A stretch of 64,000 bases of DNA from an uncultured Methylobacterium sp. (GCA_963990595.1 CAXDNE010000008.1:370-64369), one strand, 5' to 3'. Shown: positions 672-17,169, counted from the first letter of the stretch. Notes: generated by a model from the sequence alone, not told the origin. Program-made: numbers and translations.

Positions 672-2909
672 TTAATCGTCGCCGGGCGCGATGGTGGGCG
701 TCGTGCCCGGCGAGGCTGCATCGATCAGCCGGCGCACCTGACGAACAAACCGCTCGGCATCGGATTTGTCGTCCTCAGGGACACGGTCGTTCGCAAGGTG
801 CTCAGCGACGGCATCGGCCAGCGCCGACGCATCGAACACATCCCGGTCCGGTAGCCTATCGAGATCCCGGTAGTTGTAGGGCGGCGCGCTTGAAGTGACG
901 CGTCCCATCTGGGCGAAGGCGAGATCCACCGCGGCGATCGCATCGGGCAAACGCGTCGCTGCCCAGGACGAGGGGCCGGTCGCTCCGGCGAAGGTTGCCC
1001 AGACCTTGAGGGTCAGCCCGATCATCGGTTTGGTTTCGAGCGTACCCGTCTCGGCGGCCCGATTGATGCGTTCGGCCACGGCAGTCCCGAGGAGGTCGAT
1101 TTCGGAACGGGTCAGCAGCGGCGGATCCCTCGGCTCATGGCTGCCCCAGACGACTTGGTGGTCGCGACCGATGACAGCCACGAGCAGCGCCGAGGCATGG
1201 ACCCCCGTCGTTGGCTGGGCAGCGATCTCAAGGAGCGCTTCCAGGCGCTGGGTTTCCGGGATGCGTTCGACGGCGAGGATGATGAAGCTGTCGAGCCGGT
1301 CCGCGTTGCCGACCTTGAAAAAGTCGGAGACCTCGTCGCGCACCCTCATCATGTCTTCCGCGAACTCCAGGACGACGCCGATCAGGCACGGTTCGGCCGC
1401 GGCACCGTCCGCCAGCATCCCGGAGATCTCTTCGAGCAGCGGTGCGGCAAACGATATGTCGTCCGATCGCCGTCGCGCGAACGCATCACGGAACGCGTTC
1501 CGGATGAGCTCGGGGTCCCCCAATCCCTCGCGGATGCGCCGCAACTCGCTGGCGAGGATCTCGTCGAGGGGCGCCGAGAAGCGGAAGTAGGCGTCGAAGC
1601 CGTGAGGCGATCCGATGCGTCGGCCCGAGGTCGCGGGGACCCGCGAGCGATATACGAGGTGGCGGGGTCTCAGGCGCTCTTGGATGGCGGGGAGCATGCG
1701 GCAGAGCAGATCCACGACCTCGTCGCGGCCATTCGGCGATATGCTCTCGGTGATCAATCGTCCGAGTGCCTTCTCCGCCTCCTCGCCCATGAACGTGGCC
1801 TCGCCCGTGACGAAGCTCCGATTGTCCCGGATGAGGGCGTAGGTGCGAGGCTCGAAGTGCCGAAGCATCTCGACCGCCACGAGATCCGGCACGTACGCCT
1901 CACCGGCTACGGCCGGCCAGGCGACCGAGAGGGCGTTGCAGAGGCGGGTCACGTCGCGCGGTGAGATGAGGTAGCGTTTGAACGCGAGGCGAGCCACGGC
2001 GCCCCAGTCCTCCTGCTCCATCGGCGGGTTCGGCCCGACGATCGCCGTCAGCCGGTCGAAGGTCAGTTTGCGTAGGCCGGTAGGCCCGGGGGGCGGGAGG
2101 TCGAGTTCGACCTGCACGATCTTTTCGAGATAGGTCGGCAGGCGGCGCTCTTGGTCGCCTTGCGAGGGGGCCGCGCCGAGGGCCCTGTCGACGATCGTCC
2201 GGTCGTAGACGAGCAGGTGGATGACGTTCGGCAGGTTGCCGAAGGTCTTCACCAGCGTGAGGACTTGGCGCACTTCCTCGGGCTGCAGCCGATCGAGGTC
2301 GTCGATGATGACGAGGATCTTCGTCTCGATCCGGCCGAGTTGCGTCCGCAGATCGCCGATCCTGTCGTCCAGCGAGCGGGCCTGGAGACGATCCGCCCCG
2401 TAGTTGAGGGCGCCGGTCACGACCGATTTGAGGGCCGCGGCTCCCGGCGCCGCCGCCCCACCGCTCAACGCCACAGCGCCGACCGCGACGGCCCCGCCGA
2501 CCATCTCCGCGCCCCCACGGATCAGGCCTTCGAGGAAGCGCCGTGTACCTTCCGGTGCGCCCTCTCCCAACGTCTCGTCGATGACCCGCGCCAATTCGGA
2601 GACGTAGGCGGCTGCGAGGGTTTCCAGTCCTGAGAAGAGCCAAGGATTGAAGGGGCGGATCTTGAGCCGTCGCTCATCGGGAACGTCGGCTTCAAGCTCC
2701 CGGATCGCCTCCAGCGTCAGGTTGATGGCGCTGCTCTTACCCATGCCCCACTGCGCCTGCACGCCGATGACGAAGCCGTCGATCGGTGCGCGCTGGACGA
2801 TGCTTCGTGCCAACGCCTCGGCGAAGGCCTGGTAGTGCAGGCGATCCTCCCCCTTCGTCGAGATCGGCCGGTCTGCGGCGAGCTGAGCCGTGGCAACGTG
2901 ATCGGTCAT
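672..2909 (-). CDS. KAP family P-loop NTPase with long C-terminal extension
   Basis: N-terminal D-x-L (EDRLHYQAFA), Walker A QWGMGKSS, FNPWLFS, hydrophobic insert GGAVAVGAVALSGG, Walker B IIDDLDRL, YLEKIVQ and PRDVTRL: the KAP motif order. Alternative GTG start at 2930. Confidence 0.9.
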   Translation of the reverse strand: MTDHVATAQLAADRPISTKGEDRLHYQAFAEALARSIVQRAPIDGFVIGVQAQWGMGKSSAINLTLEAIRELEADVPDERRLKIRPFNPWLFSGLETLAAAYVSELARVIDETLGEGAPEGTRRFLEGLIRGGAEMVGGAVAVGAVALSGGAAAPGAAALKSVVTGALNYGADRLQARSLDDRIGDLRTQLGRIETKILVIIDDLDRLQPEEVRQVLTLVKTFGNLPNVIHLLVYDRTIVDRALGAAPSQGDQERRLPTYLEKIVQVELDLPPPGPTGLRKLTFDRLTAIVGPNPPMEQEDWGAVARLAFKRYLISPRDVTRLCNALSVAWPAVAGEAYVPDLVAVEMLRHFEPRTYALIRDNRSFVTGEATFMGEEAEKALGRLITESISPNGRDEVVDLLCRMLPAIQERLRPRHLVYRSRVPATSGRRIGSPHGFDAYFRFSAPLDEILASELRRIREGLGDPELIRNAFRDAFARRRSDDISFAAPLLEEISGMLADGAAAEPCLIGVVLEFAEDMMRVRDEVSDFFKVGNADRLDSFIILAVERIPETQRLEALLEIAAQPTTGVHASALLVAVIGRDHQVVWGSHEPRDPPLLTRSEIDLLGTAVAERINRAAETGTLETKPMIGLTLKVWATFAGATGPSSWAATRLPDAIAAVDLAFAQMGRVTSSAPPYNYRDLDRLPDRDVFDASALADAVAEHLANDRVPEDDKSDAERFVRQVRRLIDAASPGTTPTIAPGDD

Positions 2910-3082
2910 GTCGTCTCGCTTCGGCTTCACATTGCGGTCGAAAGGAGTAGGGGAGCAGGCTCTCCGCCGGCCGTGTTAGGGTCGGATCACGACGTCTTGC
3001 GCCCCACGGGGCGATAGGATCGAGGGAGGCCCGGCTCCCATCGACCCTCGCCGGTCGAATGGCCCGATCACGGATCTCGCGA

Positions 3083-3424
3083 TCAGCACCAGTCGACCTT
3101 GCCCCTGCGGAGCCAGAAATGGCTTTTGCAACCAACCTTGCGCCAGACGCTTGGCGCAAGGGATGCGGTGCCATCCCAGTGCTCTTTCAATCTCCAGCCC
3201 GGTCGGTCTCCAGGGATGAGAGAGAGTTTGATGGTCTCACCGCACCCGCAGGGGCAATCGAAGGCGGCGAACCACCGATGGCCGTCCTCGCCCACGACGT
3301 AGACGGTGCGAGGCGTGAGGGCGTCGGGCTCCTCCTCGACGAAGGCGGCGGTGTGTCGCCCGCGGCGGCGGGAGACCCAACGCAGGGCCCCCCGCAGTTT
3401 CATGAGGATGGGCCCCGTCATCAC
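3083..3424 (-). CDS. DUF6527-like small Cys/His protein (typical partner of prokaryotic E1/E2/JAB operons)
   Basis: Motifs CPCGCG, SLAPSVW and GCKSHFW, with terminal WC. The start overlaps the stop of the JAB-E1 gene. Confidence 0.8.
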   Translation of the reverse strand: MMTGPILMKLRGALRWVSRRRGRHTAAFVEEEPDALTPRTVYVVGEDGHRWFAAFDCPCGCGETIKLSLIPGDRPGWRLKEHWDGTASLAPSVWRKVGCKSHFWLRRGKVDWC

Positions 3425-4815
3425 GCGGCCCTCGCGAGCATGTCGAGATGGGGCCGATTGAGGAACGGGACCATGTCGCCCCGACCGACGTACCGGGCCA
3501 GCGCCTCGTCGACGCCCACGTCTGGCAAGTTCTCCCAGTATCCGGCCGTCAGGCTGAACGTCTGTGTCGCGAACCCGCCGTTCGGTTCGAGCCGCGACGG
3601 ATGCAGCCTGAGCAGGAACTCCATGACGGCAAGGCTGGAGAAGAGCCCATTCAACGCCCCCACGGCCGGCCGGTCCTCCGGAACCCCGCGGATGTAGCCG
3701 CGGGCGAGCCTGTCCTCGTAGGCCGCCGGATCCTGCCGGCGGAGGCTCTCGGCCTCCAGCATGCCATCCGTGTAAAGACCGCGCCCACGCAAGCTGGAAC
3801 GACCGGGCTGGAGGTAGTGGACCGAGCCGCAGATCTGCTTGACCCCGCCGTGCCCGTCGGCGTCGAGCATCACGCCGACATCGAAGTAGGCCAAGCCGTA
3901 GAAGGCAGTGAGCCGCCCCAGAAGATCACGGCCTTCGACGCCGTCCATGCAGCCGAAGACGATGTCGCAGGTCGAGACCGACTGCAGAGCTGCGGGGTGG
4001 GAGAGGTCGTGCGGGAACGCCTCCACGCGTGAGCCGAGGCCGAGCCGGTCCACGAAATCGGCGAGCACCTCGACCTTGGGCCGTCCAATATCGGCCCACG
4101 TGGTGTTCACGATACGGTTGAGGTTCTTCTCCTCGACCTTGTCCGGGTCGACGAGCACGATTTGGCCTACACCGAGGCGGGCAACCTGGTCGACGAGGGG
4201 GCCCCCGGTGCCGGAGCAGCCGACGATTCCGACCCGCAGCCCGCGGACGGTCTCGAAGGTCCCGCGTCCGAAGGCTTGGGCGTGCCGCTTGGCGAATTCG
4301 GGGACCTGCTGATCCTCGCTTGTCGGCGGCCTCCAGAGCCGGATGTCGTCGCCGACCAGGCAGACGTGGTGCAGTTCGCCGTGCTTCCCGTCGGCATGAT
4401 GGGCGCGGGCCAGCACGGCGCCGGATGGCACCATGATGGCGCTGAGGTGCGGGGCGCCGTCGTCGACCCAGGCGTGGATGCTGCCGAACAAGGCGTCGTC
4501 GGCCGCGTCATCGACCTCGCTGAACTGGAGGTTCCCGCCGGGGTGGGAGTGGATCTTCGCCACCGCCATCCCACGCCGCGCCGCCTTTTCCAGCAGGGGT
4601 TCAAGGAAGGAGGTCGGCCAGGTCACGCGCCGATCGGTCCGCTGGCAGGCGTCGTGGGGGACCGGCACGATCTCGTGGACGACGAGCTTGGCGCAGCCTG
4701 GCGACGCGGCCCGGCCGCACAGCATCAGGGCGACGGCCTCGCGGCCGTCACCCGGGAACAGATGGGAGTGGATCGCAGCGTGCTGGGCTGCGGTAAGGGC
4801 GAGCGTGACGCGCAT
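3421..4815 (-). CDS. JAB/MPN peptidase fused to ThiF/E1-like adenylating enzyme (464 aa)
   Basis: True start MRVTLAL at 4815 (TGATG overlap with the upstream gene). JAB motif E...HSHPGGNLQFSEVD; E1 motifs VGIVGCSGTGG, DPDKVEEKNLNR, GRPKV and FGCMD. Confidence 0.9.
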   Translation of the reverse strand: MRVTLALTAAQHAAIHSHLFPGDGREAVALMLCGRAASPGCAKLVVHEIVPVPHDACQRTDRRVTWPTSFLEPLLEKAARRGMAVAKIHSHPGGNLQFSEVDDAADDALFGSIHAWVDDGAPHLSAIMVPSGAVLARAHHADGKHGELHHVCLVGDDIRLWRPPTSEDQQVPEFAKRHAQAFGRGTFETVRGLRVGIVGCSGTGGPLVDQVARLGVGQIVLVDPDKVEEKNLNRIVNTTWADIGRPKVEVLADFVDRLGLGSRVEAFPHDLSHPAALQSVSTCDIVFGCMDGVEGRDLLGRLTAFYGLAYFDVGVMLDADGHGGVKQICGSVHYLQPGRSSLRGRGLYTDGMLEAESLRRQDPAAYEDRLARGYIRGVPEDRPAVGALNGLFSSLAVMEFLLRLHPSRLEPNGGFATQTFSLTAGYWENLPDVGVDEALARYVGRGDMVPFLNRPHLDMLARAA

Positions 4816-5510
4816 CAGGCGGCCCCCACTTCCTTGGCGAGGTTGTGCTCGACCACGGCGAGGTGCGTGCCGATGTCGTCGATGTCGGGCCGCCACGGGT
4901 TCAGGCCGGTGCGGTGCCGCGACCAGCCCTGCCAGTGCTTGCCCTCGAAGTTGTCGCCGACGAGCGCCCGGATCTGCGCGCCGTCCGTCCGGGCCAGGGG
5001 CGGGTGGAAGTACCACATGTCGATCTGCGAGGTCGGATACCCCGGCAGGAGCCGCATCATCAGGTCGGTCCGTTCCGGCGCGTAGCCGGCCCGGACGGGG
5101 TAGCCGCGGATGACGACGCGGGGGACGCCCGACTCCTGGACGGTCTCCCAGCGCAGGCCCAAGGCGTCGAGGGTCTCGCGGTCGCCCTCCGGCAGGACGA
5201 AGTCCCGGCGCGGGGGGAGCGCCTGCTCCCCCTCGGTCTGGTCCAGCGGCAGGGTGATGAAGCGCTCCTCGCCCTGGTCGCTGACATGGACCACCTCGTC
5301 GAGGCCGATCGGCTTCATCGTGGCGCCGATCTTCTGGAGGAGCTTGTAGCGCTCCGGGTACTCCTTGCCGGCGATGACGAGGAGGTCGCGGCCGGTCAGG
5401 TCCGGCAGCGCGTTCTCGTACTCCGTCTTGTCGATGCGGAAGCGGTAGACCCGGATCTTGCGGGTGCCGTCCTCGTCGTCGTGGTCGTTGGTGTGGCCGT
5501 TGGTCGTCAT
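4815..5510 (-). CDS. Ubiquitin-like (multi-ubiquitin type) domain fused to prokaryotic E2/UBC family E domain
   Basis: aa ~20-94 look beta-grasp-like (FRID...LTGRDLL...IGLDEVV...ERFIT) and end in QTEG94. The C-terminal part has PGYPTSQIDMWYFHPPL and WQGWSRH, typical of family-E prokaryotic E2. AGGAG RBS upstream. Confidence 0.82.
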   Translation of the reverse strand: MTTNGHTNDHDDEDGTRKIRVYRFRIDKTEYENALPDLTGRDLLVIAGKEYPERYKLLQKIGATMKPIGLDEVVHVSDQGEERFITLPLDQTEGEQALPPRRDFVLPEGDRETLDALGLRWETVQESGVPRVVIRGYPVRAGYAPERTDLMMRLLPGYPTSQIDMWYFHPPLARTDGAQIRALVGDNFEGKHWQGWSRHRTGLNPWRPDIDDIGTHLAVVEHNLAKEVGAA

Positions 5511-5653
5511 GACCGCTCCTTTCGTTCTCTCGTTGGATCCGGTGCTTCCCGCACCGTCGAGAGGTTGATCGAAAGGGACCGGCGCACCCGGAAACGGTCG
5601 CGCTCACTTTTTTTACAGGATCGATCTCGGCCTTCCCGCGGGCTTGCCGAACC

Positions 5654-8600
5654 TCAACGCTCCCTGGACAGCGGGTGCCGCACGAAGGCGCCGCCTGCCG
5701 GCAGACCGGGGCAAGCGAAGAGGTGTGGGCAGCGAAGGCAGCCACGGCCAGGATTGGGAGCGAAGTGGCCGCCGCCGATGTCGGCCATGTGCTGGGCGAC
5801 GGCGGCGACAAGCTCGGCCCGCTTGTCAGCCGCGACCGCCCGGCGGGTCGAGCCAGTCAGGTGGATCGCCTCGACGGTCACGGGCTCGCCGAAAGCCTGT
5901 TCTGCGGCGGCATCGAGGATCGCGTACTCGAATTCCTTTTCCAGAGAGGCCATGGCTCTGCGCGTGGCGATCCGCCTCACGATCAACCGGCCGTCTCGGG
6001 TGCGCACCACGTCGTGCGCCCGGGAGAGAATGTGTCCGCCGCCGGCAGCCAGACGCAAGGCCCTGGGCGCCTGCCGGCCTTCCTCGTCGCGCGTGCCTAC
6101 GAGAAATCTCAACATCTCCTCGGCGATCCGCCTGTATGCGTTGGCGTGGCCGTGGTCGGCCGGCCCGTGCTTTTCCCAGGCACCCTCGAACGCCGCCGCA
6201 AAACCCGCCGGCTCCGCCTGGGCGGCGTCGAAGTTCCGATCGAGCCAATCGATCATCGCCCGGACTGCGTTGTGCATCCGGATGTACGGGTTCTCGTCGC
6301 GGCGGCCGCCGAGGCTGAGGACGTAGGTGTATAGGAAGCGTAATCCGCACTTCCCGTAGGCATCGAGATGCTGGTGGTCGAGCTCGACCGGAACGCTCCA
6401 GGCGACCGGCACCGGCACGGGGGCAGCCGCCATGGGTGGTGCCGGGAGTGGGGGGATCGGACGTGTCGGGCCCAGCGTGGCGGCGATGCGTGCGTTGTAA
6501 GCGGAAGGGTTCCGCCGCCGCGCGCCACCCTTTTGCATCGTGGAGCGGTACAGGCGCAGGCCGTCTCGCGCGCGGGAAAGAAGCACGAAGAACAGACAGG
6601 CTTCCTGCTCGTCGTGGCCTGCCATGCACGCCTGGAGACCGGTCATGCCCACGCTGCCGGCGATGAGGCCGTCCGGCGGTGGGCAATCCGGCGCCTTCGC
6701 GCTACGGGGCAGTCCCGTGGCGATCATGCCCGGGGCATGCACGAGGTCGAATTCGAGCCCCTTGCTTCCATGGATCGTCATCAGCCGGACGGCATCGAGT
6801 TCCAGGGCTGCGTCCGGGAATTGCCGCAGCGAGCGCTCTTCGTTCAGCCGGATCAACCTCCTGATCTGACGAGTGACCTCGAAGGTCGGGAATTGCCCTT
6901 CAATCGGCAGGGACCGAAGGAAGTTGAGGAATTGCCAGACCGCGACGCCGGCCATCCGGTCGCCCAGCGTGGCGGCCCCCCCGATGCGTCTGGCGATCCC
7001 GAGCCTGTCGAGCACCAGGGCGCTCGCGATATTCCAGGGATGGGCGCGGGGCTCGAAGCCAGCGCAGGCTTCTCGGAGCCGCCGCAGGGATTCCTGCCCT
7101 TGCCGGCTCAGGCCGGGGATCTCGTCCGCCCCCTCCAGCCATGCCAGCGGATCGGTGGCCGCATCCCTGAGATGGGCCGCGACCAAGGCAACGTCGCCGA
7201 GCCCCATCCCGACTTCCGGGATCATGGCGACCCGTACCAGCGTCGCGGCGCGAGGGTCGTGGAACAGGGCGAGCAGGCTGAGCAGATCCTTGATCTCGGG
7301 CCGCTCGAAGAGGGGCCCGAGGTAGAGGACGGGGATGTTCCGAGCCGCCAGGCCGCCGGCGAAGGCAGCGAGCCGGTCGTTGGCCGTGCAGAGGACAGCT
7401 TGGTCGCGAAAGGCGATCCCCTCGGCGTTTGCCTCGGCGATTGAAGCGGCGACCAGAGCGATCTCGTCGTCGGGCGTTCCCGCCTCGTGAAGGACCGGTC
7501 GTTCGCCGCACCTCCCTCGATCGGGGGTAAGACGGAGGTCGCCAATGCGCCTAAAGGCCTCGACGCTCGAAGCGAAGGCCGAGAAGGTGTCGATGATCTC
7601 GCCGCGCGAACGATAGTTGACGGTCAGCGCGCCGTCCGTCGCGGTGGGGTAATCTTCCTTGAAAGCCCCCATACTTGCCGAGGTCGCGCCCCGGAAGCGG
7701 TAGATCGACTGGCGGGCATCGCCCACGACCCAGAGACGTTCACCGCCGTCCGCGGCGAGCGCACCGATCAGGCGGACGGTGGCGAAATTCACATCCTGGT
7801 ATTCGTCGACGAGGATGTGACGGTGCCGGAGCGCCAGCGCCTTGGCCACCTCGGGATGGTCCGCCATCAAGCGCACCGGCTTCATGATGAGATCGCCGAA
7901 GTCCAGGGTGTCATTGTCCGCGAGGAGCCGTTCGTAGGCTGCGTAGACCATCGCCTCCTCCGTCGCGCGCTTCGCCCGTAGGCGCGTCGCCTCGTCGGTC
8001 GCGGCACGGCCCATAGCCTCCGCGAGTTCGGCGTAACGAACGTGGTCGACGAGTTCGTCCTTCGCCCGCGAGATGGCAGCGAGGATGTCCGCGAGGTTGT
8101 CCTCGGGATCCCAGAGATCCCGGTAGTGATCCAATGGGAGGGCCGGGATGATCTCCTCAAGCATCGTGATGGCCGTGGCCTTGTCGACGAGGCGCGGGCT
8201 CGGGGGAAGCTTGAGACGGTCATGGAAGCGACGGACGATATCCAGGCCGAAGGCGTGGAAGGTACCGATCCAGACGGAAGCGGCCGCCTCGGGGTGTGAA
8301 AGGGCGAGCCGGTCCATCAGCTCGCCTGCCGCCTTGTTCGAGAATGTCAGGACGAGAATGCCGTTCGGGTCCACGCCCTCGTCGATGAGGCTCGTGACCC
8401 GGCGGATCAGGGTCCTGGTCTTACCAGTGCCGGGGCCGGCCTGGAGGAGATAGGGGCTGCCGCGGTGCGCGACGGCGACGTCCTGGCTTGGATCGGGTCG
8501 AAGCGCCCCGCCGGCGGGAGCGGCGACCGCCTCAGGAACCGGCGGCAGCAGGAGGGCATCGAGCAGTTGTTGCGTGACGACGTCCTCCCGGATCCCGAGC

Positions 8601-9082
8601 CGGGCGGCGATATCCGCTACGCTCATGCCCGCGGCATGGTGCTCGCGCACGACGAAGCGTGGCAACACGAGCTCGCGGGCGAAGAGATCCGCTTGGACTT
8701 CCCGCCGTTCGCCTCGCCCGTAATCGACGAGTCTCTCGACGGCGGAACCGCTCTCCGCCGAACGGCTGGGATCAGTGTGGTAGGTGAGAACCGGCACCGC
8801 GCACCCGTGCATCGCCACGTGGCCGAGTTCGTGCCCGATCAGGAGGGCGTCTTCTCCAGCCGATCCCGTCTCGCCGTAGAGGATACCTTTCGTCTCGGGG
8901 TCGATGATCGCCTTGCACCCGCGCAGCGAGACGTCGCCCGCCTGTGCAGGTTGATGCCAGAGGTCGTAGGTCGGGAGGGCCCGCACGACGACGTCGTAAG
9001 GCTGCCAAGGGTCGCCGCCGCTGGCGACGACCTCCCGGTGGATACGTTCAGCCCTCTTTCTTGCGGCCTCAATCGGATCCAC
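5654..9082 (-). CDS. ImmA/IrrE-type metallopeptidase fused to UvrD/PcrA-like SF1 helicase and a C-terminal PD-(D/E)XK-like (AddB/Cas4-like) domain
   Basis: N-terminal GHELGH and EVQADLFARELVLP; helicase motifs AGPGTGKT, DEYQD, GDARQSIYRFRGA, LMTIHGSKGLEF and VLLSRAR; C-terminal YGKC...CLRCPHLFAC four-Cys pattern. Confidence 0.88.
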   Translation of the reverse strand: MDPIEAARKRAERIHREVVASGGDPWQPYDVVVRALPTYDLWHQPAQAGDVSLRGCKAIIDPETKGILYGETGSAGEDALLIGHELGHVAMHGCAVPVLTYHTDPSRSAESGSAVERLVDYGRGERREVQADLFARELVLPRFVVREHHAAGMSVADIAARLGIREDVVTQQLLDALLLPPVPEAVAAPAGGALRPDPSQDVAVAHRGSPYLLQAGPGTGKTRTLIRRVTSLIDEGVDPNGILVLTFSNKAAGELMDRLALSHPEAAASVWIGTFHAFGLDIVRRFHDRLKLPPSPRLVDKATAITMLEEIIPALPLDHYRDLWDPEDNLADILAAISRAKDELVDHVRYAELAEAMGRAATDEATRLRAKRATEEAMVYAAYERLLADNDTLDFGDLIMKPVRLMADHPEVAKALALRHRHILVDEYQDVNFATVRLIGALAADGGERLWVVGDARQSIYRFRGATSASMGAFKEDYPTATDGALTVNYRSRGEIIDTFSAFASSVEAFRRIGDLRLTPDRGRCGERPVLHEAGTPDDEIALVAASIAEANAEGIAFRDQAVLCTANDRLAAFAGGLAARNIPVLYLGPLFERPEIKDLLSLLALFHDPRAATLVRVAMIPEVGMGLGDVALVAAHLRDAATDPLAWLEGADEIPGLSRQGQESLRRLREACAGFEPRAHPWNIASALVLDRLGIARRIGGAATLGDRMAGVAVWQFLNFLRSLPIEGQFPTFEVTRQIRRLIRLNEERSLRQFPDAALELDAVRLMTIHGSKGLEFDLVHAPGMIATGLPRSAKAPDCPPPDGLIAGSVGMTGLQACMAGHDEQEACLFFVLLSRARDGLRLYRSTMQKGGARRRNPSAYNARIAATLGPTRPIPPLPAPPMAAAPVPVPVAWSVPVELDHQHLDAYGKCGLRFLYTYVLSLGGRRDENPYIRMHNAVRAMIDWLDRNFDAAQAEPAGFAAAFEGAWEKHGPADHGHANAYRRIAEEMLRFLVGTRDEEGRQAPRALRLAAGGGHILSRAHDVVRTRDGRLIVRRIATRRAMASLEKEFEYAILDAAAEQAFGEPVTVEAIHLTGSTRRAVAADKRAELVAAVAQHMADIGGGHFAPNPGRGCLRCPHLFACPGLPAGGAFVRHPLSRER

Positions 9083-9701
9083 GTTCGGCCTCTGCCATAT
9101 CGAGCAGCCGTTTCTGCTGCTCGGCGGTCAGGCCCGACGTAGCAACCGCTTCCTCGAAGGTCTGCTTTTTCCCCGCCGCGGGTTTGCCGTCCGACTTCGC
9201 CATCATACCGAGCGGCATCGAGGCGGACCGCGCAAGACTTGCATGCACCGCACTTACTTCATGCCCAAGCTCGTCGGCAATTATCTTGGATAGTTTTCTA
9301 GGAAACGCGGATGCCTCGATAAGACCATCTTTTATTTTAATCAAAAAAAGCGGACTTAAATCAAGACGTGCAGCTAATCGTGGAAAGGCTGCTCCGCTAA
9401 CCCCCGAAAAAACGTTAGCCATTCTGGCTGCGTTAGGTACGGGTGTCGTCGCGGGCTCGGACTTTATCCCGGCCTGGAAACGGGCCCATGCGGAAGACAC
9501 CGTCTTCCTCGTCGACGCATCAGCAGCCGGCAATGTGCGAGCGGGTTCCAGGACCATCTCGACCGCAAGTTCCGTCAGCTCCCGACGCAACTCAGGGTGT
9601 TCCTTCGCGTAGGTTTCGAGGCGTCTTGGGGTCGGCTCCCCTTCCGTTGCAAACTCCATCAGTACGTCGCGCATGCCGCGCATGGTGCTGGTCGTTGTCA
9701 T
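9069..9701 (-). CDS. Hypothetical protein, putative anti-sigma / HTH-containing partner of the sigma factor and IrrE peptidase
   Basis: 210-aa ORF overlapping both neighbours (ATGA with the sigma gene, 14 nt with the helicase gene). Helical composition with an HTH-like C-terminal half (LAARLDLSPLFLIKIKDG). Function is inferred from position only. Confidence 0.6.
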   Translation of the reverse strand: MTTTSTMRGMRDVLMEFATEGEPTPRRLETYAKEHPELRRELTELAVEMVLEPARTLPAADASTRKTVSSAWARFQAGIKSEPATTPVPNAARMANVFSGVSGAAFPRLAARLDLSPLFLIKIKDGLIEASAFPRKLSKIIADELGHEVSAVHASLARSASMPLGMMAKSDGKPAAGKKQTFEEAVATSGLTAEQQKRLLDMAEAERGSD

Positions 9702-10471
9702 CGTCCCTCTCCGAGTTCACGACGCAGCTTTTCGTACGCCTTCTGAAGGCGATACCGTATCGCCCGGTCGGAGACGTCGCAAAGCTTCGCAATGTTTTCC
9801 GCGTCGTCGCCCTCGATGGGGTGCCCCTTGAGGACGAGCGTGACAGCCACCCTTTCGTGGTCTGGCAAACGGTCGATCGCGCGAAGAAGCTCGTTCCGGA
9901 AACGTTCTCTTTCCTGTTCGGCGCCCTCCGCCTGGAAAAATTCCCGCAGCTGCTTGGCTAGGACTGGTAGGGGCTGCCCTTCCTCGTCGTGCATGTCCTC
10001 GACGTGATCCTCCTTGGCGGACATCCGTCCGGAGGCGCGCAGCACGTCGATGCGCAAGGCCGCGAGCGCGCTGGCGAAACGCACCTCGAAGTAGTCGAGA
10101 CGCTCGCCCGATTGGTTGCGGTCCTCCACCAGGAGATCCACGAACCTATCGGCCACCTCCTGACGCAACTCCTCCACGTCATAGAGCGAGCTTGGCCGAA
10201 CAGACCCCTTCAACGATCGGACGACGCGGTCGAGGAGGATCTCGAATAACTGCGCGAAGCGGTCGTCGGAATTGTCTAGACGGGTCGAGCGGATGAGGTG
10301 GAGCAGGCATTCGGGCTCGATGAAGCCCGGTGCTCGCGGATCATCGAGGCGTGCCTCGCGGATGACGGTGTCGAGATCGAGCCCCGTTGCACGATCTATG
10401 GCGGCGTCGACAGAAGCTGTCCTGGCATAGAGTTCGCCCGTTTTTTTACGTTTCGTGAGGGGAGGCGGCAT
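9698..10471 (-). CDS. Sigma-70 / ECF-like sigma factor
   Basis: Region 2-like (EELRQEVADRFVDLL...FASALAALRIDVLR) and a clear region 4 HTH (AIDRLPDHERVAVTL...NIAKLCDVSDRAIRYRLQKAYEKLR). Confidence 0.75.
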   Translation of the reverse strand: MPPPLTKRKKTGELYARTASVDAAIDRATGLDLDTVIREARLDDPRAPGFIEPECLLHLIRSTRLDNSDDRFAQLFEILLDRVVRSLKGSVRPSSLYDVEELRQEVADRFVDLLVEDRNQSGERLDYFEVRFASALAALRIDVLRASGRMSAKEDHVEDMHDEEGQPLPVLAKQLREFFQAEGAEQERERFRNELLRAIDRLPDHERVAVTLVLKGHPIEGDDAENIAKLCDVSDRAIRYRLQKAYEKLRRELGEGR

Positions 10472-10594
10472 GCCGAATCCGTGTGGCGTTCCAGCGACGC
10501 TACCTCAAGATGATTTGTCGCCAAGTTCAAGGTGCGGGCCCCGTCCTTCCGTCCAATCTGAGCCTCAACGATTCTTCTGTTCGGCACCCTGTCC

Positions 10595-11409
10595 CTAACG
10601 GGCCGGAGATAGGTTGACCGCGCGCCCGCCTTCGAACCCGCTGGCCTCCTCGACGTGCCCGCGCGGGTTGCAGGCGACCCGGGTGGGCCCGACGCGGTAA
10701 TCGGCGGCGTGGTGGAGGTGGCCGTGGATCCAGAGGTCCGGCCCCCTCGCGTGGACCAGGTCGCGCAGGTCCGAGGCGTAGCACCAGCGCAGGTTGACGT
10801 GCGGATCTGGCAGGCTCTCGGGGAGCGGCGCGTGGTGGGTCACGACGACCGTGGGGCCGGGATGCGGCTCCGATAGGACGCGGTCTAGGAACGCGCGGGT
10901 GCGCCGGTGCATGGCGAGCACCTCGCCGGGCTCGATCCGGTGCCGCGAGCTCGGGCCGGTGCGGATCCGGCGGTAGTCGACCATGCCGAACCGCCCTTGC
11001 GCTGACCGCGTAGCCTGCGTCAGGGTCACGGATCCGAGCCGGAAATCGGTCCAGAGCGTGCCGCCGGCGAACCGGGTTCCGCCGATGGTGACGGCGTCGT
11101 CCATCAGCAGGTGAATGCCGTGACGGGCGGCGAGATCGCGGCCCCGGGCGACTTGGTCTTGGATCGTGTAGCGGTCCTCGCCCCGATCCCACAGAAGTCG
11201 TGGTTGCCGGGCACGTAGACGACCGGCACCCGGGGCAGGCGCTCGGCGAGCCAGCCGAGGGCGCGGGTCCGGGGCGTGTGTACGTCGCCGGCGACGATGG
11301 CCGCGTCGAACCCGCCCGTCGGCGCGTGCGCGGCTGGGTCCCAGGTGTTCTCCGGCTATTCCTGGTGCAGGTCGGAGAAGATCCTGAGGCGCTGAGGGCG
11401 GCCGGTCAC
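10595..11409 (-). pseudogene. Calcineurin-like metallophosphoesterase, inactivated
   Basis: GTG start at 11409 gives RIFSDLHQE* (in-frame TAG), then AGDVH...YVPGNHDF, a frameshift near 11195, and it continues GTLWTD...VVVTHHAP...WIHGHLH...NPRG. Confidence 0.85.
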
Positions 11410-11960
11410 GGGTCGCCTCCGTTTCGGCCCGCATTCTCGGCGAGGCGGGTGAGGATCTCGTCGATGGCGACGGGGCGGAAATCGAAGCAGTCCACGCCGA
11501 CGTTTGTGCTGGCCGCGGTGCCGGGCAGCCGGCCGTGGGAATGGCCGTAGAGGTGGATGTCGCCCCGGTGCTGGCCGGGCCAGACGCGGTGGGCGTAGTG
11601 CGAGCACCACACGCCCAGGGTCGTGCCGTCGGGGCGCGGGACGACGACCCGGGCGACGTCGACGACGCCGTCCCAGGGCAGGCGGGCCGCGATGCGGTCG
11701 TGGTTGCCGCGGACGAGGAAGCGTCGGCGGCCGTTGAGCCGGCCGAAGATCGCGCGTGCTCTGTCCTTCGGGCAGCGGTGACAGAAGTCGCCGAGGTGCC
11801 AGACGGTGTCGCCGGGGCGGACGGCCGCGTTCCAGCGGGCGATCAGCGCCTCGTCGTGCTCCTCGATGGTGGCGAAGGGGCGGTTCAGGCCGAACCGTGC
11901 GCCGAGTGCGGCCCGGTGCCCGAAATGACTGTCGGCGGTAAGCAGAATTCGGGATGGCAT
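11406..11960 (-). CDS. Metallophosphoesterase (phage-type small phosphoesterase)
   Basis: MPSRILLTADSHFGH, HDEALIARWN, WHLGDF, RGNHD, HLYGHSHG and NVGVD motifs. Confidence 0.88.
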   Translation of the reverse strand: MPSRILLTADSHFGHRAALGARFGLNRPFATIEEHDEALIARWNAAVRPGDTVWHLGDFCHRCPKDRARAIFGRLNGRRRFLVRGNHDRIAARLPWDGVVDVARVVVPRPDGTTLGVWCSHYAHRVWPGQHRGDIHLYGHSHGRLPGTAASTNVGVDCFDFRPVAIDEILTRLAENAGRNGGDP

Positions 11961-12002
11961 GGGAGCCTCGCGCGGGTCGCGGAGGCTCGACGCAGGGGGC
12001 CG

Positions 12003-12090
12003 CCATGGTGCCCGCCATGGTGGCAATAGACGGCCTCCCATGACGCTGTCCATGGTGGCGTATCGCTGTCGCCCATAAGGGTCTCCATGG
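12003..12090. repeat. CCATGG palindrome cluster (copy 1; 4 perfect plus near variants)
   Basis: CCATGG at 12003, 12015, 12050 and 12085; CCATGA at 12038. Confidence 0.8.
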
Positions 12091-14411: not shown

Positions 14412-14747
14412 GCCGGAAAATAATCCGAACGGCCTGCATTTTTCCCTGGACGCATTCAACTTTCCACGATCGGGCGTAGCCTCTTCTCGTTTCCGAGCGG
14501 GCAGCAGTTCGGGGCGGTCTACGGTCGATGATCGAGTTCCATGCCTACTTCTGTGTCGGGGAGGACCCCGCCGGCGAGAAGCGTCCGATCCTGCTGCGGC
14601 CCGGCTTGCGAACGTGATGTCGGCTGTGCAGGCCGACGGATGTTGCGCCACTGCGAGATATCCACAGCCATCCACATCCGAACTCCACCGGGATGCCTGA
14701 AATTTCTTAGGCCACGCTCCGCCACTTGGCGGGAACCCACCGCGTAT

Positions 14748-14762
14748 GTTCATCTTTTGTTC
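14748..14762 (+). promoter_or_regulatory. Alphaproteobacterial LexA (SOS) box
   Basis: Perfect GTTC-N7-GTTC (GTTCATCTTTTGTTC), 21 nt upstream of the umuD start. Confidence 0.9.
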
Positions 14763-14783
14763 CGTAGGTTTCGGAGCGAGCGC

Positions 14784-15212
14784 ATGCAGGCCCATACTGT
14801 CACGATCGGGCTGCCCACCCCCGTCCCCATCCTCGCCAAGGCAGTGCGTGCCGGCTTCCCAAGCCCGGCCGACGACTTCATCGAGGACGAGATCGACCTT
14901 CAGCGGCTGCTGATCGCAAACCGCCCGGCGACCTTCCTGGTGCGGGTGGCCGGCGACAGCATGATGCTCGCCAAGCTGTTCGACGGCGATATCGCGGTGG
15001 TCGACCGCTCGCTCAAGCCTCGCAATGGCGACGTGGTGGTGGTCGACGTCGACGGGGAGCGGTCGTTCAAAGTCTGGCGCCGCCAGGGCCCCCGGGTGAC
15101 CCTGCATTTCGCCAACCCCCGCTTTCCCGAGTTCCAGCTGTCCCCGGACGCGGTCATCGAGGTCTGGGGCGTCGTGTCCGGCTCGGTGAACCCGAGGCGA
15201 CGGAGCGAATGA
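14784..15212 (+). CDS. umuD: UmuD-like S24 peptidase (SOS mutagenesis)
   Basis: VRAGFPSPADD, TFLVRVAGDSM and DGERSFK (Ser/Lys dyad); ATGA overlap with umuC. Confidence 0.92.
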   Translation: MQAHTVTIGLPTPVPILAKAVRAGFPSPADDFIEDEIDLQRLLIANRPATFLVRVAGDSMMLAKLFDGDIAVVDRSLKPRNGDVVVVDVDGERSFKVWRRQGPRVTLHFANPRFPEFQLSPDAVIEVWGVVSGSVNPRRRSE

Positions 15213-16494: not shown

Positions 16495-17169
16495 GAAGGG
16501 CGGCGTTGTCCGCGAGGCTGGGTGGCCGGCGTGCCGCGGACCCGTGGCCGCCGACGGTAAGCGAGGGGCCGGGCCCCGGCTCCGGCTCCGGCTCGTCCGA
16601 GACTACATCGATCCCATGCTACGATACCGCCGGGTACTATTCCTGCGCCTGCGACGCGGCGCTCAAGCGTGAGGCGACGACCGTCGCGGACGGCTCGAAC
16701 GCATCCCTGGAGGTCCGGCGCCGGGCCTTGAGCGTGGTGGAAGCGACCGCCGCTATGGACTGCCGCGCCCCGTAGCCGCGCGCGCCGGGTTCTTCAGTTC
16801 GGATAGCTCGGCGCACCCGCGACCCGGGCTGCCGCCTCGCGGGCCTTGGCATCGGCCGCGGCCTCCGTATGGTCCGACGCCTCCACGATGGCGTCGGGGT
16901 GCACGTCGCTATGCATCGCATTGTATGTGGCGCGACGGCACTGAGTTCCGCTGGAGTCGTGGCGCGACGGCGGCCTGAGTGGCTGCCCGCGCACCGATCC
17001 CGCGCCTGAGATCCCGTCGCGGGGACGAGGCTGGACGAGACCGCAACAGCGCCGGTGCCGACCGCGGTCGAGCCCGCTTCTTAGATTGGTCCGTCCTGCC
17101 TGCCTGGCCGTATCCTGTGGCAGCATCACGCCGACCACGAACAGAAGAGCGGCCCCCGCGACGTGGCAT

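What the first reader, a model, noticed from the sequence alone, without database searches (positions are those of the whole stretch)
672..10471. Ubiquitination-like (Bub / type 6E-like) defence operon with its own sigma factor, IrrE-helicase sensor and KAP NTPase
Seen: seven co-directional genes; four of the six junctions overlap (9698/9701, 9069/9082, 4815, 3421/3424). Order: sigma > unknown HTH-like > IrrE::UvrD::nuclease-like > Ubl::E2 > JAB::E1 > DUF6527-like > KAP NTPase. There is no CD-NTase. Established: multi-Ub/E2-family-E/JAB-E1/Cys-cluster operons form the type 6E or Bub class of bacterial ubiquitination systems, proposed to act in antiphage defence; IrrE/CapP peptidases control defence operons after DNA damage; KAP NTPases (e.g. 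PifA) act in phage exclusion. Inference: a self-contained sense > transcribe > conjugate > effector system. I do not recognise this exact combination as a characterised system.
Basis: partly seen in the sequence, partly recalled or inferred. Interest (0 to 1): 0.92.

Follow-up and report, generated by a model that had tools for sequence, protein, structure and literature searches.

The report
Sigma-switched bacterial ubiquitin-like (Bub) operon
Six of the seven genes form a conserved cassette in which a dedicated sigma factor, a small partner protein and a protease-helicase fusion sit in front of a known bacterial ubiquitin-like conjugation (Bub) operon and share a conserved promoter with it, while the seventh gene (a PifA-like KAP ATPase) is only a neighbour.

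Summary
There are seven co-directional minus-strand genes with the stated domains and four overlapping junctions.

- **Conjugation genes (3083-5510).** They are a catalytically intact, already described Type I Bub (6E.1) operon: BubAB, BubCD and BubE. BubE (DUF6527) is a Ser-His protease.
- **KAP gene (672-2930).** It is a full-length PifA homologue, but it is absent from all 88 related loci. Homology to the closest relative ends 6 nt after the bubE stop.
- **Upstream triad (new part).** It comprises an ECF-like sigma factor, a 210-aa protein and an M78 peptidase-UvrD helicase-nuclease-like fusion. Of 64 helicase-anchored loci with full flanks, taken from genomes that each represent a different species across several phyla, 60 have the triad upstream of a ubiquitin-like operon: 44 Bub and 16 Bil.
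- **Promoter-like motif.** TTWCCGG-N16-CGATY lies between the helicase gene and the cargo in 62 loci. It also lies inside the sigma gene in Bub loci, or upstream of it in Bil loci. The window has exactly two copies (0.03 expected).

I infer a DNA-sensing protease-helicase that releases the sigma factor to switch on the conjugation operon. I found no paper describing this module.

The parts
9698..10471 (-). SIG: ECF-like sigma-70 family factor, 257 aa. It has an N-terminal extension of about 70-90 aa, a region-2-like segment and region 4.
   Evidence: Pfam Sigma70_r4_2 6.8e-8. NCBIfam TIGR02937 1.1e-11, 44.6 bits against a cutoff of 42.9, covering residues 71-253. Present directly upstream of HYP-HEL in 62 of the 64 full-flank loci. 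PGAP names the Acinetobacter plasmid homologue 'sigma-70 family RNA polymerase sigma factor'.
9875..9902 (-). Internal promoter-like motif TTTCCGG-N16-CGATC. It lies inside the 3' part of the sigma gene, about 170 nt upstream of the HYP start codon.
   Evidence: One of only two exact matches to TTWCCGG-N16-CGATY in the 64-kb window (0.03 expected). The same position carries the motif in 37 of 44 Bub-type loci and 0 of 16 Bil-type loci. All motif positions are near 2 bits, including codon third positions.
9069..9701 (-). HYP: 210-aa protein of unknown family. It is the proposed anti-sigma or repressor partner and substrate of the M78 peptidase.
   Evidence: No Pfam, PADLOC, NCBIfam or PDB match. 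It is conserved between SIG and HEL in the related loci. The AF2 model (pLDDT 70) shows four N-terminal helices, a four-helix HTH-like middle domain and a C-terminal hairpin, joined by disordered linkers. Only weak Xre/Cro-type HTH signals were found. A YKADxKP...TFEEA motif is conserved and P174 is invariant.
5654..9082 (-). HEL: 1142-aa fusion of an M78 (IrrE/ImmA-type) peptidase, a UvrD-type SF1 helicase and a PD-(D/E)xK-like domain with four Cys. It is the proposed DNA sensor and protease.
   Evidence: Pfam hits. HExxH (H84, E85, H88), Walker A (GPGTGKT) and DEYQD are invariant in 15 homologues at 45-73% identity. Four Cys are invariant (C912, C1115, C1118, C1124). The nuclease motif III reads RRVKTG in the family and RRIATRR in the window, instead of DYKTG. 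The family is found in up to 574 species-representative genomes (an upper bound, see the full report) and on 92 plasmids.
5567..5594 (-). Cargo promoter-like motif TTTCCGG-N16-CGATC in the 143-nt gap between HEL and bubAB. The -10-like element ends about 55 nt before the bubAB ATG, which has a GAAAGGAG ribosome-binding site.
   Evidence: Exact motif match. The motif lies 3-70 nt after the HEL stop in 62 loci, in front of both Bub and Bil cargo. The logo from 44 unique sequences is TTaCCGG-N16-CGATTga.
4815..5510 (-). BubAB: ubiquitin-like domain (residues 1-94) fused to a serine-type E2 (residues 95-231).
   Evidence: Multi_ubiq 2.1e-9 and Prok-E2_E 2.4e-32. PDB 9eav_D Citrobacter BubB 2.7e-20, aligning from residue 95. 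G94 is nearly invariant at the Ubl/E2 junction (at least 93% of 15 type I BubAB). S197, H199 and D164 are present.
3421..4815 (-). BubCD: JAB/JAMM peptidase fused to a tyrosine-type E1 adenylyltransferase, 464 aa.
   Evidence: PDB 9ea4 Citrobacter BubCD, E = 2.3e-77 over the full length. The published catalytic residues E28, D104, R227 and Y370 align with E26, D102, R234 and Y374.
3083..3424 (-). BubE: DUF6527 zinc-binding Ser-His protease, 113 aa.
   Evidence: PF20137 3e-24. C57, C61, S92, C99 and H102 are invariant, and C59 is present in the window protein. These match the residues published for Citrobacter BubE.
672..2930 (-). PifA-like KAP P-loop NTPase, 752 aa. It is an adjacent, independent gene and NOT part of the conserved cassette.
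   Evidence: PADLOC PifA 1.5e-86 over residues 15-701, aligned to 3-689 of the 720-position model. Absent from all 88 related loci. Homology to Methylobacterium sp. 2A covers window 3077-11999 only. No motif lies in the 152-nt gap.

Best explanation
Window 3083-10471 is a six-gene cassette. Its output is a Type I Bub (bacterial ubiquitination-like) pathway, and its input is a previously undescribed three-gene control module.

**Shown**
- BubAB, BubCD and BubE are intact homologues of the biochemically characterised Citrobacter proteins, with all catalytic residues present.
- SIG, HYP and HEL are encoded in this order directly upstream of a Ubl-conjugation operon (Bub or Bil) in nearly every genome that has HEL.
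- A promoter-like motif with an ECF-type layout (TTWCCGG, 16 nt, CGATY) sits between HEL and the cargo. A second copy sits within the sigma gene in Bub loci, or upstream of it in Bil loci.
- HEL keeps its peptidase and ATPase motifs and four Cys, but lacks the acidic residue of the nuclease (D/E)xK motif.
- The KAP/PifA gene is an unrelated neighbour.

**Inferred mechanism**
1. SIG is made at a low level and is held inactive by HYP. HYP acts either as an anti-sigma factor through its N-terminal helices or as a CapH-like repressor through its Xre-like HTH.
2. HEL loads on aberrant DNA, such as ssDNA or ends from phage replication or DNA damage. It does so through its UvrD motor and a nuclease-dead four-Cys (presumed Fe-S) domain.
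3. DNA engagement activates the fused M78 peptidase. By analogy with ImmA/ImmR, IrrE/DdrO and CapP/CapH, it cleaves HYP.
4. Freed SIG directs RNA polymerase to the two promoters. One gives a burst of BubAB/BubCD/BubE. The other re-synthesises HYP-HEL, which resets the switch.
5. The JAB domain of BubCD cleaves BubAB after G94. BubA is then adenylated, passed through E1-Tyr374 and E2-Ser197 oxyesters and conjugated to still unknown targets. BubE removes conjugates.
For: **Bub membership**
- Pfam hits.
- PDB Citrobacter BubCD 2.3e-77 and BubB 2.7e-20.
- Catalytic residues are conserved, matching the published mechanism.

**Association of the triad with Ubl cargo**
- 8 of 8 complete Methylobacterium/Methylorubrum loci keep the six genes.
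- Among 64 helicase-anchored loci from species-representative genomes with full flanks, 60 have SIG+HYP upstream and a Ubl operon downstream: 44 Bub and 16 Bil.
- The Bil cargo was identified with PADLOC: BilA 4e-50, BilB 4e-64, BilC 1e-61, BilD 1e-163.
- The same order is seen on K. pneumoniae and Acinetobacter plasmids, where PGAP annotates the sigma factor, hypothetical protein, UvrD helicase, multiubiquitin protein, ThiF and DUF6527 protein.

**Promoter motif**
- 175 regex hits in 3.6 Mb. About 136 of them lie at three fixed positions.
- The spacer is 16 nt in 53 of 63 cargo copies.
- The window has exactly 2 exact hits against 0.03 expected, both on the operon strand.
- Placement tracks cargo type.

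**HEL motifs:**

**HYP:** the gene order mirrors HTH-substrate/M78-peptidase pairs, and the model shows a weak Xre-like HTH.

**Precedents**
- CapH+CapP, CapW and CapK+CapS regulate Bub, Bil and CBASS operons after DNA damage.
- The ECF sigma DdvS regulates a CBASS-CRISPR island (PMC11506125, listed).

**KAP exclusion:**
Against: - There is no experimental or transcript evidence. The public runs holding this sequence gave only flat, low contig coverage.
- HYP has no significant similarity to any anti-sigma factor, HTH family or solved structure. Its role is assigned by position and analogy.
- The motif has not been shown to be a promoter. The internal copy lies in coding sequence (F/Y-R...A-I), so protein constraint contributes to its conservation. 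ACCGGT is palindromic and could instead be an operator.
- No sigma-type motif was found upstream of SIG itself in Bub-type loci, so how SIG is expressed is unknown.
- The call that the nuclease is dead rests on motif alignment by eye. No structural superposition was made, and the C-terminal domain matches no PDB sequence.
- Only the 80 HEL homologues most similar to the window were examined.
- Bub has not been shown to defend against phage.
Confidence: 0.6

Rival explanations
1. All seven genes form one self-contained system, with the KAP NTPase as the downstream effector of Ubl conjugation.
For: KAP is co-directional and only 152 nt downstream of bubE. KAP/PifA proteins act in phage exclusion, and the PADLOC PifA match is 1.5e-86.
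Against: - KAP is absent from all 88 related loci, including the relative whose BubAB is 93% identical.
- The homology block ends 6 nt after the bubE stop.
- No shared motif precedes KAP.
- The cassette on plasmids ends with DUF6527, followed by unrelated genes.
Confidence: 0.04
2. The triad is an independent defence system, with a helicase-nuclease effector under its own sigma factor (Gabija- or AddAB-like). It merely clusters with Bub and Bil in defence islands.
For: The UvrD part matches PADLOC GajB models and a DRT-associated helicase model (RTasHel), with E-values down to 3e-67. A PD-(D/E)xK fold with four Cys is present. The locus lies in a variable region with umuDC-like genes and a transposase.
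Against: - Order, orientation and spacing are fixed, and 94% of loci carry a Ubl operon immediately downstream. This is not a variable island neighbourhood.
- The shared motif is placed exactly at the HEL/cargo junction.
- The acidic residue of the nuclease motif III is replaced by an invariant Arg.
- The few loci without cargo look degraded, with a split or truncated HEL and flanking IS elements.
Confidence: 0.07
3. The parts are the same but the logic differs. HYP is a CapH-like DNA-binding repressor sitting on the conserved (partly palindromic) motif. HEL cleaves it after DNA damage. SIG is simply the promoter-specific sigma and is not sequestered by HYP.
For: The middle domain of HYP gives weak Xre/Cro-type hits. 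The -35-like element ACCGGT is palindromic. CapH/CapP work in exactly this way upstream of Bub and Bil operons.
Against: - The fixed 16-nt spacing to a non-palindromic CGATT element fits a sigma promoter better than a dimer operator.
- The HTH signal is below every threshold.
- This model gives no reason for a dedicated sigma factor.
- The conserved N-terminal four-helix region of HYP has no role in this model.
Confidence: 0.2
4. HEL is also a working partner of the conjugation machinery. It might be the Ubl target, or a DNA-bound platform that brings Bub or Bil enzymes to invading DNA or virion assembly sites. This would explain why the triad is restricted to Ubl systems.
For: All 60 cargo-bearing loci examined carry Ubl-conjugation operons of two evolutionarily distinct families (Bub and Bil) and no CBASS or other system. 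By contrast, CapH/P, CapW and CapK/S serve many system types.
Against: - Nothing tested here bears on a physical link.
- One locus (L077) has non-Ubl cargo.
- Bil works in E. coli when moved alone, according to the published studies (one search lists them).
- The sample is limited to the 80 closest HEL homologues.
Confidence: 0.09

Closest known systems
Type I Bub (6E.1 / DUF6527) operon: BubAB, BubCD, BubE (Corbett laboratory, bioRxiv 10.1101/2024.11.21.623953)
   Same: Same three genes, fusions and order. BubCD is full-length homologous to the solved Citrobacter protein (2.3e-77). The E2 Ser/His/Asp, E1 Tyr and Arg, JAB Glu/His/Ser/Asp, BubE Cys/Ser/His and the Ubl C-terminal Gly are all conserved. 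Methylobacterium Bub operons are in the published lists.
   Different: Nothing essential in the core. BubA here is a single beta-grasp of 94 residues. The published tables list Methylobacterium extorquens and M. populi 6E.1 operons with no associated regulator (column layout).
CapH + CapP (HTH repressor plus M78/IrrE-like peptidase) regulators of CBASS, Bil and Bub operons
   Same: An M78 metallopeptidase with an intact HExxH is encoded next to a small helical, HTH-like protein, immediately upstream of a Ubl operon. A DNA-damage or ssDNA trigger is plausible.
   Different: - The peptidase is fused to a 950-aa UvrD helicase and nuclease-like module.
- The genes are co-directional with the cargo, whereas capH/capP were divergent from bilABCD in all but one published case.
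- The partner protein matches no Xre HTH model.
- A dedicated sigma factor and a sigma-type promoter are added.
CapK + CapS and CapW/BrxR (other DNA-damage-responsive regulators of Bub operons; PMC13373217)
   Same: A modular cassette placed upstream of Bub or Bil operons that presumably couples DNA stress to operon expression.
   Different: The proteins are unrelated (kinase/STAS-wHTH and WYL-HTH). Those act by de-repression of a housekeeping promoter rather than through a dedicated sigma factor.
DdvS/DdvA: an ECF sigma and transmembrane anti-sigma pair controlling a CBASS-CRISPR island in Myxococcus xanthus (PMC11506125)
   Same: An alternative sigma factor dedicated to switching on defence genes.
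   Different: The anti-sigma there is a membrane protein. Here no partner has a predicted membrane segment, the sensor is a cytoplasmic protease-helicase, and the cargo is a Ubl system.
PifA (F-plasmid phage exclusion KAP NTPase; PADLOC/DefenseFinder single-gene system)
   Same: The 752-aa KAP protein matches the PifA model end to end (1.5e-86).
   Different: It is not linked to the Bub cassette in any other genome examined. It is treated here as a separate neighbouring defence gene.
AddB, Cas4 and RecB-family Fe-S nuclease domains fused to SF1 helicases
   Same: A UvrD-type motor is followed by a PD-(D/E)xK-fold domain with the C...CxxCxxxxxC cysteine pattern.
   Different: Motif III DYK is RxK (RxA in the window), so cleavage activity is unlikely. 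An N-terminal M78 peptidase is present. There is no partner subunit.

Membership tests
Type I Bub (6E.1) operon | Ubl-E2 fusion (BubAB) with multiubiquitin-type beta-grasp and family-E E2 | tested here: met
   Multi_ubiq 2.1e-9 and Prok-E2_E 2.4e-32. Citrobacter BubB structure 2.7e-20.
Type I Bub (6E.1) operon | E2 uses an invariant Ser with nearby His and Asp instead of a catalytic Cys | tested here: met
   W-S197-R-H199 and D164 in the window. W196, S197 and R198 are nearly invariant in 15 type I homologues. Criterion taken.
Type I Bub (6E.1) operon | JAB/JAMM peptidase-E1 fusion (BubCD) with an adenylation Arg and a catalytic Tyr | tested here: met
   2.3e-77 to PDB 9ea4 over residues 6-458. 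E26, H89, H91, S99, D102, R234 and Y374 align with the published E28, D104, R227 and Y370.
Type I Bub (6E.1) operon | DUF6527 protein (BubE) with a C4 zinc site and a Ser-His dyad | tested here: met
   PF20137 3e-24. C57, C59, C61, C99, S92 and H102 are present.
Type I Bub (6E.1) operon | Ubl released by JAB cleavage to expose a C-terminal Gly, followed by oxyester-based conjugation | not testable with these tools
   G94 is nearly invariant at the junction, and the solved BubB chain aligns from residue 95. This is consistent, but the activity itself is biochemical.
ECF-type sigma-70 family factor | Regions 2 and 4 only, recognised by family models above the curated cutoff | tested here: met
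   TIGR02937 at 44.6 bits (cutoff 42.9), residues 71-253. Sigma70_r4_2 at 32.5 bits (cutoff 25.7). It is atypical in having an N-terminal extension of about 70-90 aa.
ECF-type sigma-70 family factor | Cognate promoter with conserved -35 and -10 elements at fixed spacing near its own operon | tested here: inconclusive
   A conserved TTWCCGG-N16-CGATY motif lies at three fixed places. Transcription from it was not tested.
ECF-type sigma-70 family factor | Adjacent anti-sigma factor | tested here: inconclusive
   HYP is adjacent and its start overlaps the SIG stop (4 nt), which suggests translational coupling. It matches no anti-sigma family or structure.
CapH + CapP regulator pair | Stand-alone M78 peptidase (PF06114) next to an Xre-family HTH (PF01381), usually divergent from the cargo | tested here: not met
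   The M78 domain is present, but fused to helicase and nuclease-like domains and co-directional with the cargo. HYP gives only sub-threshold HTH hits.
PifA / KAP NTPase defence gene | Full-length match to the PifA model with a KAP P-loop domain | tested here: met
   PADLOC PifA 1.5e-86 (residues 15-701). KAP_NTPase 5.3e-44.
   0 of 88 loci. The homology break lies 6 nt after bubE.
Type II CBASS (Cap2/Cap3) | CD-NTase plus an E1-E2 fusion (Cap2) and a JAB (Cap3) | tested here: not met
   There is no CD-NTase among the seven proteins. The PADLOC 'E1-E2' hits to BubCD cover only the ThiF core.
Gabija (GajA + GajB) | GajB UvrD-like helicase paired with a GajA OLD-family nuclease | tested here: not met
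   The GajB model hits come from the shared UvrD fold. No GajA-like gene is in the locus.
AddB/Cas4/RecB-family nuclease | Catalytic D...(D/E)xK motif plus four Fe-S Cys | tested here: not met
   The four Cys are invariant, but motif III is RRVKTG (window RRIATRR), read from the alignment by eye.

The most novel reading that the evidence does not exclude
SIG-HYP-HEL is a new, widespread family of immune or stress switches dedicated to bacterial ubiquitin-like conjugation systems, both Bub and Bil. A single polypeptide couples a DNA-tracking UvrD motor and a nuclease-dead four-Cys (presumed Fe-S) domain to an M78 protease. That protease destroys an anti-sigma or repressor partner and so releases a private sigma factor that reads a private promoter. 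If so, expressing SIG alone would turn on otherwise silent native Bub operons. That could reveal their so far unknown targets and biological role.
Probability: 0.45. Interest if true: 0.78.

Novelty: new variant of a known kind. Interest (0 to 1): 0.62.

Why it matters
- **An open problem in Bub biology.** Bub operons are biochemically understood, but their biological function is not. The published work could not find a Bub operon that protects E. coli from phage, and its tables list about half of the 544 catalogued operons without a regulator.
- **A missing control layer.** The triad supplies a candidate control layer for a share of those operons that was not measured here. It also appears upstream of Bil, which is an experimentally validated antiphage system.
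- **Bub as an inducible response.** The triad's presence upstream of Bil strengthens the case that Bub is an inducible immune or DNA-stress response.
- **Concrete experimental handles.** The work yields a sigma factor, a 28-nt promoter, and peptidase and ATPase active sites.
- **A possible explanation for negative results.** A private sigma factor would explain why transplanted operons could stay silent in E. coli.
- **A new regulatory design.** A protease-helicase fusion acting with a sigma factor would be a new design for coupling DNA sensing to transcription.
- **Reach into clinical species.** The cassette is carried on conjugative and mobilizable plasmids of Acinetobacter and Klebsiella.

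Tried and rejected
- **Expression evidence.** I looked for RNA evidence in public runs. They gave only low, flat contig coverage, probably from contaminating or metagenomic Methylobacterium DNA. No transcript ends could be read.
- **HYP identity.** Profile search against PDB sequences gave no hit. The AF2 model searched with Foldseek gave only E > 1 matches, to cyanase N-terminal and ClgR Xre-type HTH domains. A relaxed Pfam scan of 23 family members gave only scattered sub-threshold HTH hits. No family assignment is possible.
- **HEL domains against PDB sequences.** Neither the N-terminal peptidase region nor the C-terminal nuclease-like domain found a solved relative by sequence.
- **Bub-anchored census.** The fraction of all Bub operons that carry the triad was therefore not measured.
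- **Standard regulatory signals.** The sigma-70 promoter scan found no promoter-like site. The four terminator-like sites it found are no more than chance (4 found, 4.7 expected in shuffles).
- **Literature.** Searches for the triad returned nothing relevant. Searches combined sigma factor, UvrD, M78, ImmA, Bub, Bil and ECF.
- **Rejected readings.** KAP as effector; the triad as a Gabija-like effector; DUF6527 as an E3-like Cys-cluster protein.

Full report
**1. What is in the window**

Seven co-directional ORFs lie on the minus strand between 672 and 10471.

| Coordinates | Size | Pfam result | Label used here |
|---|---|---|---|
| 9698-10471 | 257 aa | Sigma70_r4_2 | SIG |
| 9069-9701 | 210 aa | no family | HYP |
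| 5654-9082 | 1142 aa | Peptidase_M78 + UvrD-helicase/UvrD_C + PDDEXK_1 | HEL |
| 4815-5510 | 231 aa | Multi_ubiq + Prok-E2_E | BubAB |
| 3421-4815 | 464 aa | Prok-JAB + ThiF | BubCD |
| 3083-3424 | 113 aa | DUF6527 | BubE |
| 672-2930 | 752 aa | KAP_NTPase | KAP |

SIG also reaches the curated cutoff of the ECF sigma model TIGR02937. Four junctions overlap, by 4, 14, 1 and 4 nt. Two gaps remain: 143 nt before bubAB and 152 nt before the KAP gene.

**2. The conjugation genes are a known system**

The literature defines '6E/DUF6527' operons as Bub. Type I Bub consists of BubAB (Ubl-E2), BubCD (JAB-E1) and BubE. In that work:
- the E1 uses a Tyr and the E2 a Ser, forming oxyester intermediates;
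- the JAB domain cleaves BubAB to release the Ubl;
- DUF6527 is a zinc-binding Ser-His protease that removes conjugates.

The window proteins fit this in every respect.
- **BubCD** matches the solved Citrobacter BubCD over its full length (E = 2.3e-77). The published E28, D104, R227 and Y370 align with E26, D102, R234 and Y374.
- **BubAB**, from residue 95 onward, matches the solved Citrobacter BubB (2.7e-20).
- **A nearly invariant Gly (G94)** marks the Ubl/E2 junction.
- **The E2 Ser-x-His and upstream Asp** are present as S197, H199 and D164.
- **BubE** has C57, C59, C61, C99, S92 and H102.

Methylobacterium Bub operons are already in the published catalogues. This part is 'already known'. 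The same papers state that no Bub operon has yet been shown to protect against phage.

**3. The KAP gene is a neighbour, not a component**

- It matches the PADLOC PifA model end to end (1.5e-86). PifA is a stand-alone phage-exclusion gene.
- In nine related Methylobacterium/Methylorubrum loci the other six genes are kept but KAP never appears. One of these loci is cut at a contig end and holds only the three Bub genes.
- It is absent from all 80 helicase-anchored loci as well.
- Nucleotide homology to the closest relative (Methylobacterium sp. 2A, 84% identity over 8.9 kb) spans window 3077-11999. It ends 6 nt after the bubE stop.
- On Klebsiella and Acinetobacter plasmids the cassette ends with the DUF6527 gene, followed by unrelated genes.

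**4. The upstream triad is conserved and tied to Ubl operons**

HEL belongs to a large, well conserved family of about 1140 aa. Fifteen members at 45-73% identity share:
- an invariant HExxH (H84, E85, H88);
- Walker A, DEYQD and helicase motif III;
- four invariant Cys.

A genome scan with this alignment found 574 relatives among genomes that each represent one species. This is an upper bound, because the search patterns are generic UvrD-helicase motifs. The 80 best hits come from Alpha-, Beta- and Gammaproteobacteria, Myxococcus, Opitutaceae, Gemmataceae, Latescibacterota, Acidobacteria, Chloroflexota and others.

I called genes in these loci, clustered them and rescanned with family HMMs. 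Of 64 loci with at least 2.5 kb upstream and 4.5 kb downstream:
- 60 have SIG and HYP directly upstream of HEL and a ubiquitin-like conjugation operon directly downstream;
- 44 of these carry Bub (types I and II);
- 16 carry a second family, which PADLOC identifies as BilA, BilB, BilC and BilD (E-values 4e-50 to 1e-163). This is the ISG15-like system known to block phage assembly (papers listed).

The four exceptions have a truncated or split HEL, or lack SIG. Those inspected look degraded. One further locus, with shorter flanks, has different small cargo genes (L077).

HEL homologues also sit on 92 PLSDB plasmids, 45 of them from Acinetobacter. One is a conjugative K. pneumoniae plasmid. None is in the phage collection beyond generic helicase matches.

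**5. A shared promoter-like motif**

Reading the HEL-cargo gaps side by side showed a conserved TT(T/A)CCGG, then 16 nt, then CGAT(T/C).
- A regex finds 175 matches in 3.6 Mb of locus sequence, counting both strands. About 136 of them fall at three fixed places.
- The first place is 3-70 nt after the HEL stop, in 62 loci.
- The second is about 800 nt before the HEL start, which is inside the 3' part of the sigma gene and roughly 200 nt before HYP.
- The third is just upstream of SIG.
- The spacer is 16 nt in 53 of 63 cargo copies. The logo from 44 unique sequences is TTaCCGG-N16-CGATTga.

Placement follows cargo type:

| Cargo type | Motif inside SIG | Motif in HEL-cargo gap | Motif upstream of SIG |
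|---|---|---|---|
| Bub loci (44) | 37 | 39 | 2 |
| Bil loci (16) | 0 | 10 | 10 |

In the 64-kb window the exact pattern occurs only twice, at 5567-5594 and 9875-9902. Both copies are on the operon strand, against 0.03 expected. None, even with two mismatches, precedes the KAP gene.

The two-box layout with fixed spacing is what ECF sigma promoters look like. Its conservation across phyla next to a private sigma factor is the strongest argument that SIG drives the cargo.

Two caveats apply. No transcription data exist. The internal copy overlaps codons (F/Y-R...A-I), so it is partly constrained at the protein level. However, in A7 some SIG sequences carry other residues at these positions (e.g. 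F-L...A-I, Y-L...V-V); their cargo type was not checked.

**6. What the triad proteins look like**

- **SIG.** It has a conserved N-terminal extension of about 70-90 aa, a region-2-like segment (LDYFEVRF...LR) and a clear region 4.
- **HYP.** It has no detectable family. The AF2 model (pLDDT 70) gives four N-terminal helices, a disordered linker, a four-helix HTH-like domain, a second linker carrying a conserved YKADxKP motif, and a C-terminal helical hairpin. Foldseek and relaxed Pfam scans give only sub-threshold Xre/Cro-type signals.
- **HEL.** The nuclease-like domain keeps the Cas4/AddB-type Cys pattern. The canonical hhDYKTG motif reads VVRRVKTG, and IVRRIATRR in the window. I therefore consider it a DNA-binding module rather than a cutting one. 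This rests on motif reading, not on a structural superposition.

**7. Mechanism**

*Shown.* The core enzymes are intact, the six genes are conserved together, and the motif is shared.

*Inferred, by analogy with ImmA/ImmR, IrrE/DdrO and CapP/CapH, and with sigma/anti-sigma logic.*
1. HYP holds SIG, or the promoter, inactive.
2. HEL engages abnormal DNA through its helicase and presumed Fe-S domains.
3. Its M78 domain cleaves HYP.
4. SIG then transcribes bubAB-CD-E from the promoter at 5567-5594. It also transcribes HYP-HEL from the internal promoter, which gives negative feedback.
5. The Bub pathway then runs as published.

I put about 0.85 on 'six-gene unit with SIG-dependent control of Bub, KAP separate'. 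I put about 0.45 on the specific protease-releases-sigma mechanism.

**8. Comparison with known systems and novelty**

Published regulators of Bub and Bil operons are:
- CapW (8% of Bub operons);
- CapH+CapP (31% of Bub, 15% of Bil), which were divergent from bilABCD in all but one case;
- CapK+CapS.

Dataset EV1 of the 2026 EMBO J paper lists Methylobacterium extorquens and M. populi Type I Bub operons with no regulator (column layout). My literature searches found nothing describing a sigma factor plus an M78-UvrD fusion upstream of Ubl operons. Absence from the held library is not proof.

The closest concepts are CapH/CapP (same peptidase family, different architecture) and the ECF pair DdvS/DdvA that controls a CBASS-CRISPR island. 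I therefore rate the finding as a new variant of a known kind, namely inducible transcriptional control of defence operons. It is attached to an already known effector system and sits next to an unrelated known defence gene.

**9. Context**

The cassette lies in a variable region. Nearby are a metallophosphoesterase split into two ORFs immediately upstream, umuD/umuC-like genes, a low-GC stretch and an IS21/Mu-type transposase.

Noticed in passing
window 10595-12053 (-): A calcineurin-like metallophosphoesterase appears split into two ORFs that overlap by 29 nt. 11406-12053 carries the N-terminal Metallophos domain. 10595-11434 carries an HGHLHH-type C-terminal part. The same split is seen in Methylobacterium sp. 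2A (L001), and both ORFs belong to the block shared with that genome. It could be a frameshifted pseudogene, a recoding site or two genes.
   Followed up: partly
window 14541-16336 (+): A umuD-like gene (Peptidase_S24, 1.3e-24) is followed by a umuC-like Y-family polymerase gene (IMS, 5.7e-37), overlapping it by 4 nt. This is an SOS mutagenesis pair typical of mobile elements, about 4 kb from the cassette.
   Followed up: partly
window 17000-20765: GC content drops to about 0.50 at 17.0-18.5 kb, against about 0.67 around it. An IS21/Mu-type transposase follows (rve + Mu-transpos_C_2, 19227-20765, + strand). This suggests an insertion and a variable island.
   Followed up: no
window 12483-14411 (+): A 642-aa ORF with no Pfam family lies on the opposite strand between the metallophosphoesterase and the umuDC-like genes.
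   Followed up: no
L012, L014, L015, L038, L066 (BubAB homologues): In one clade of type I BubAB, the E2 motif WSRH is WSRN and the upstream IDMFY is IYGFY. The His and Asp that accompany the catalytic Ser are therefore replaced together. This may be a covarying alternative active-site environment.
   Followed up: no
L077:7406-9081 (Acidobacteria MAG): Here SIG-HYP-HEL is followed not by Bub or Bil but by three small genes. One is a 223-aa protein with DEDD-type exonuclease-like motifs. The strict regex found no motif there. This may be a rare third kind of cargo.
   Followed up: partly
L090 (K. pneumoniae plasmid CP120875.1) and L091 (A. seifertii plasmid NZ_CP061579.1): The same six-gene cassette, with a type II Bub, sits on clinical-species plasmids. 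It lies next to Tn7-like TnsD and ATP-binding genes in Klebsiella, and next to IS5 and IS1006 in Acinetobacter. 45 of the 92 plasmid hits are from Acinetobacter.
   Followed up: partly
HEL stop region in most loci; window about 5605-5615 (-): An A-rich run (AAAAAAA) lies 13-19 nt upstream of the -35-like box. In most genomes it encodes the C-terminal Lys-Lys-Phe of HEL. In the window HEL stops about 40 nt earlier, but the A-run is retained. This suggests it is kept for a DNA-level reason, possibly as a UP element.
   Followed up: no
L027 (Mesorhizobium sp. LjNodule214): A second full-length HEL-family gene (1130 aa) lies about 4 kb downstream of the first cassette, so two copies occur within 12 kb.
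   Followed up: no
L012, L014, L016, L018, L019, L034 (upstream of SIG): In several Betaproteobacteria and an Opitutaceae MAG the cassette is preceded by an AAA+ ATPase (about 390 aa, in most of these loci) and a subtilase S8 protease (about 740 aa). In several Alphaproteobacteria it is preceded by a DUF6088 + AbiEii pair. These are different defence-type neighbours, consistent with defence-island residence.
   Followed up: partly
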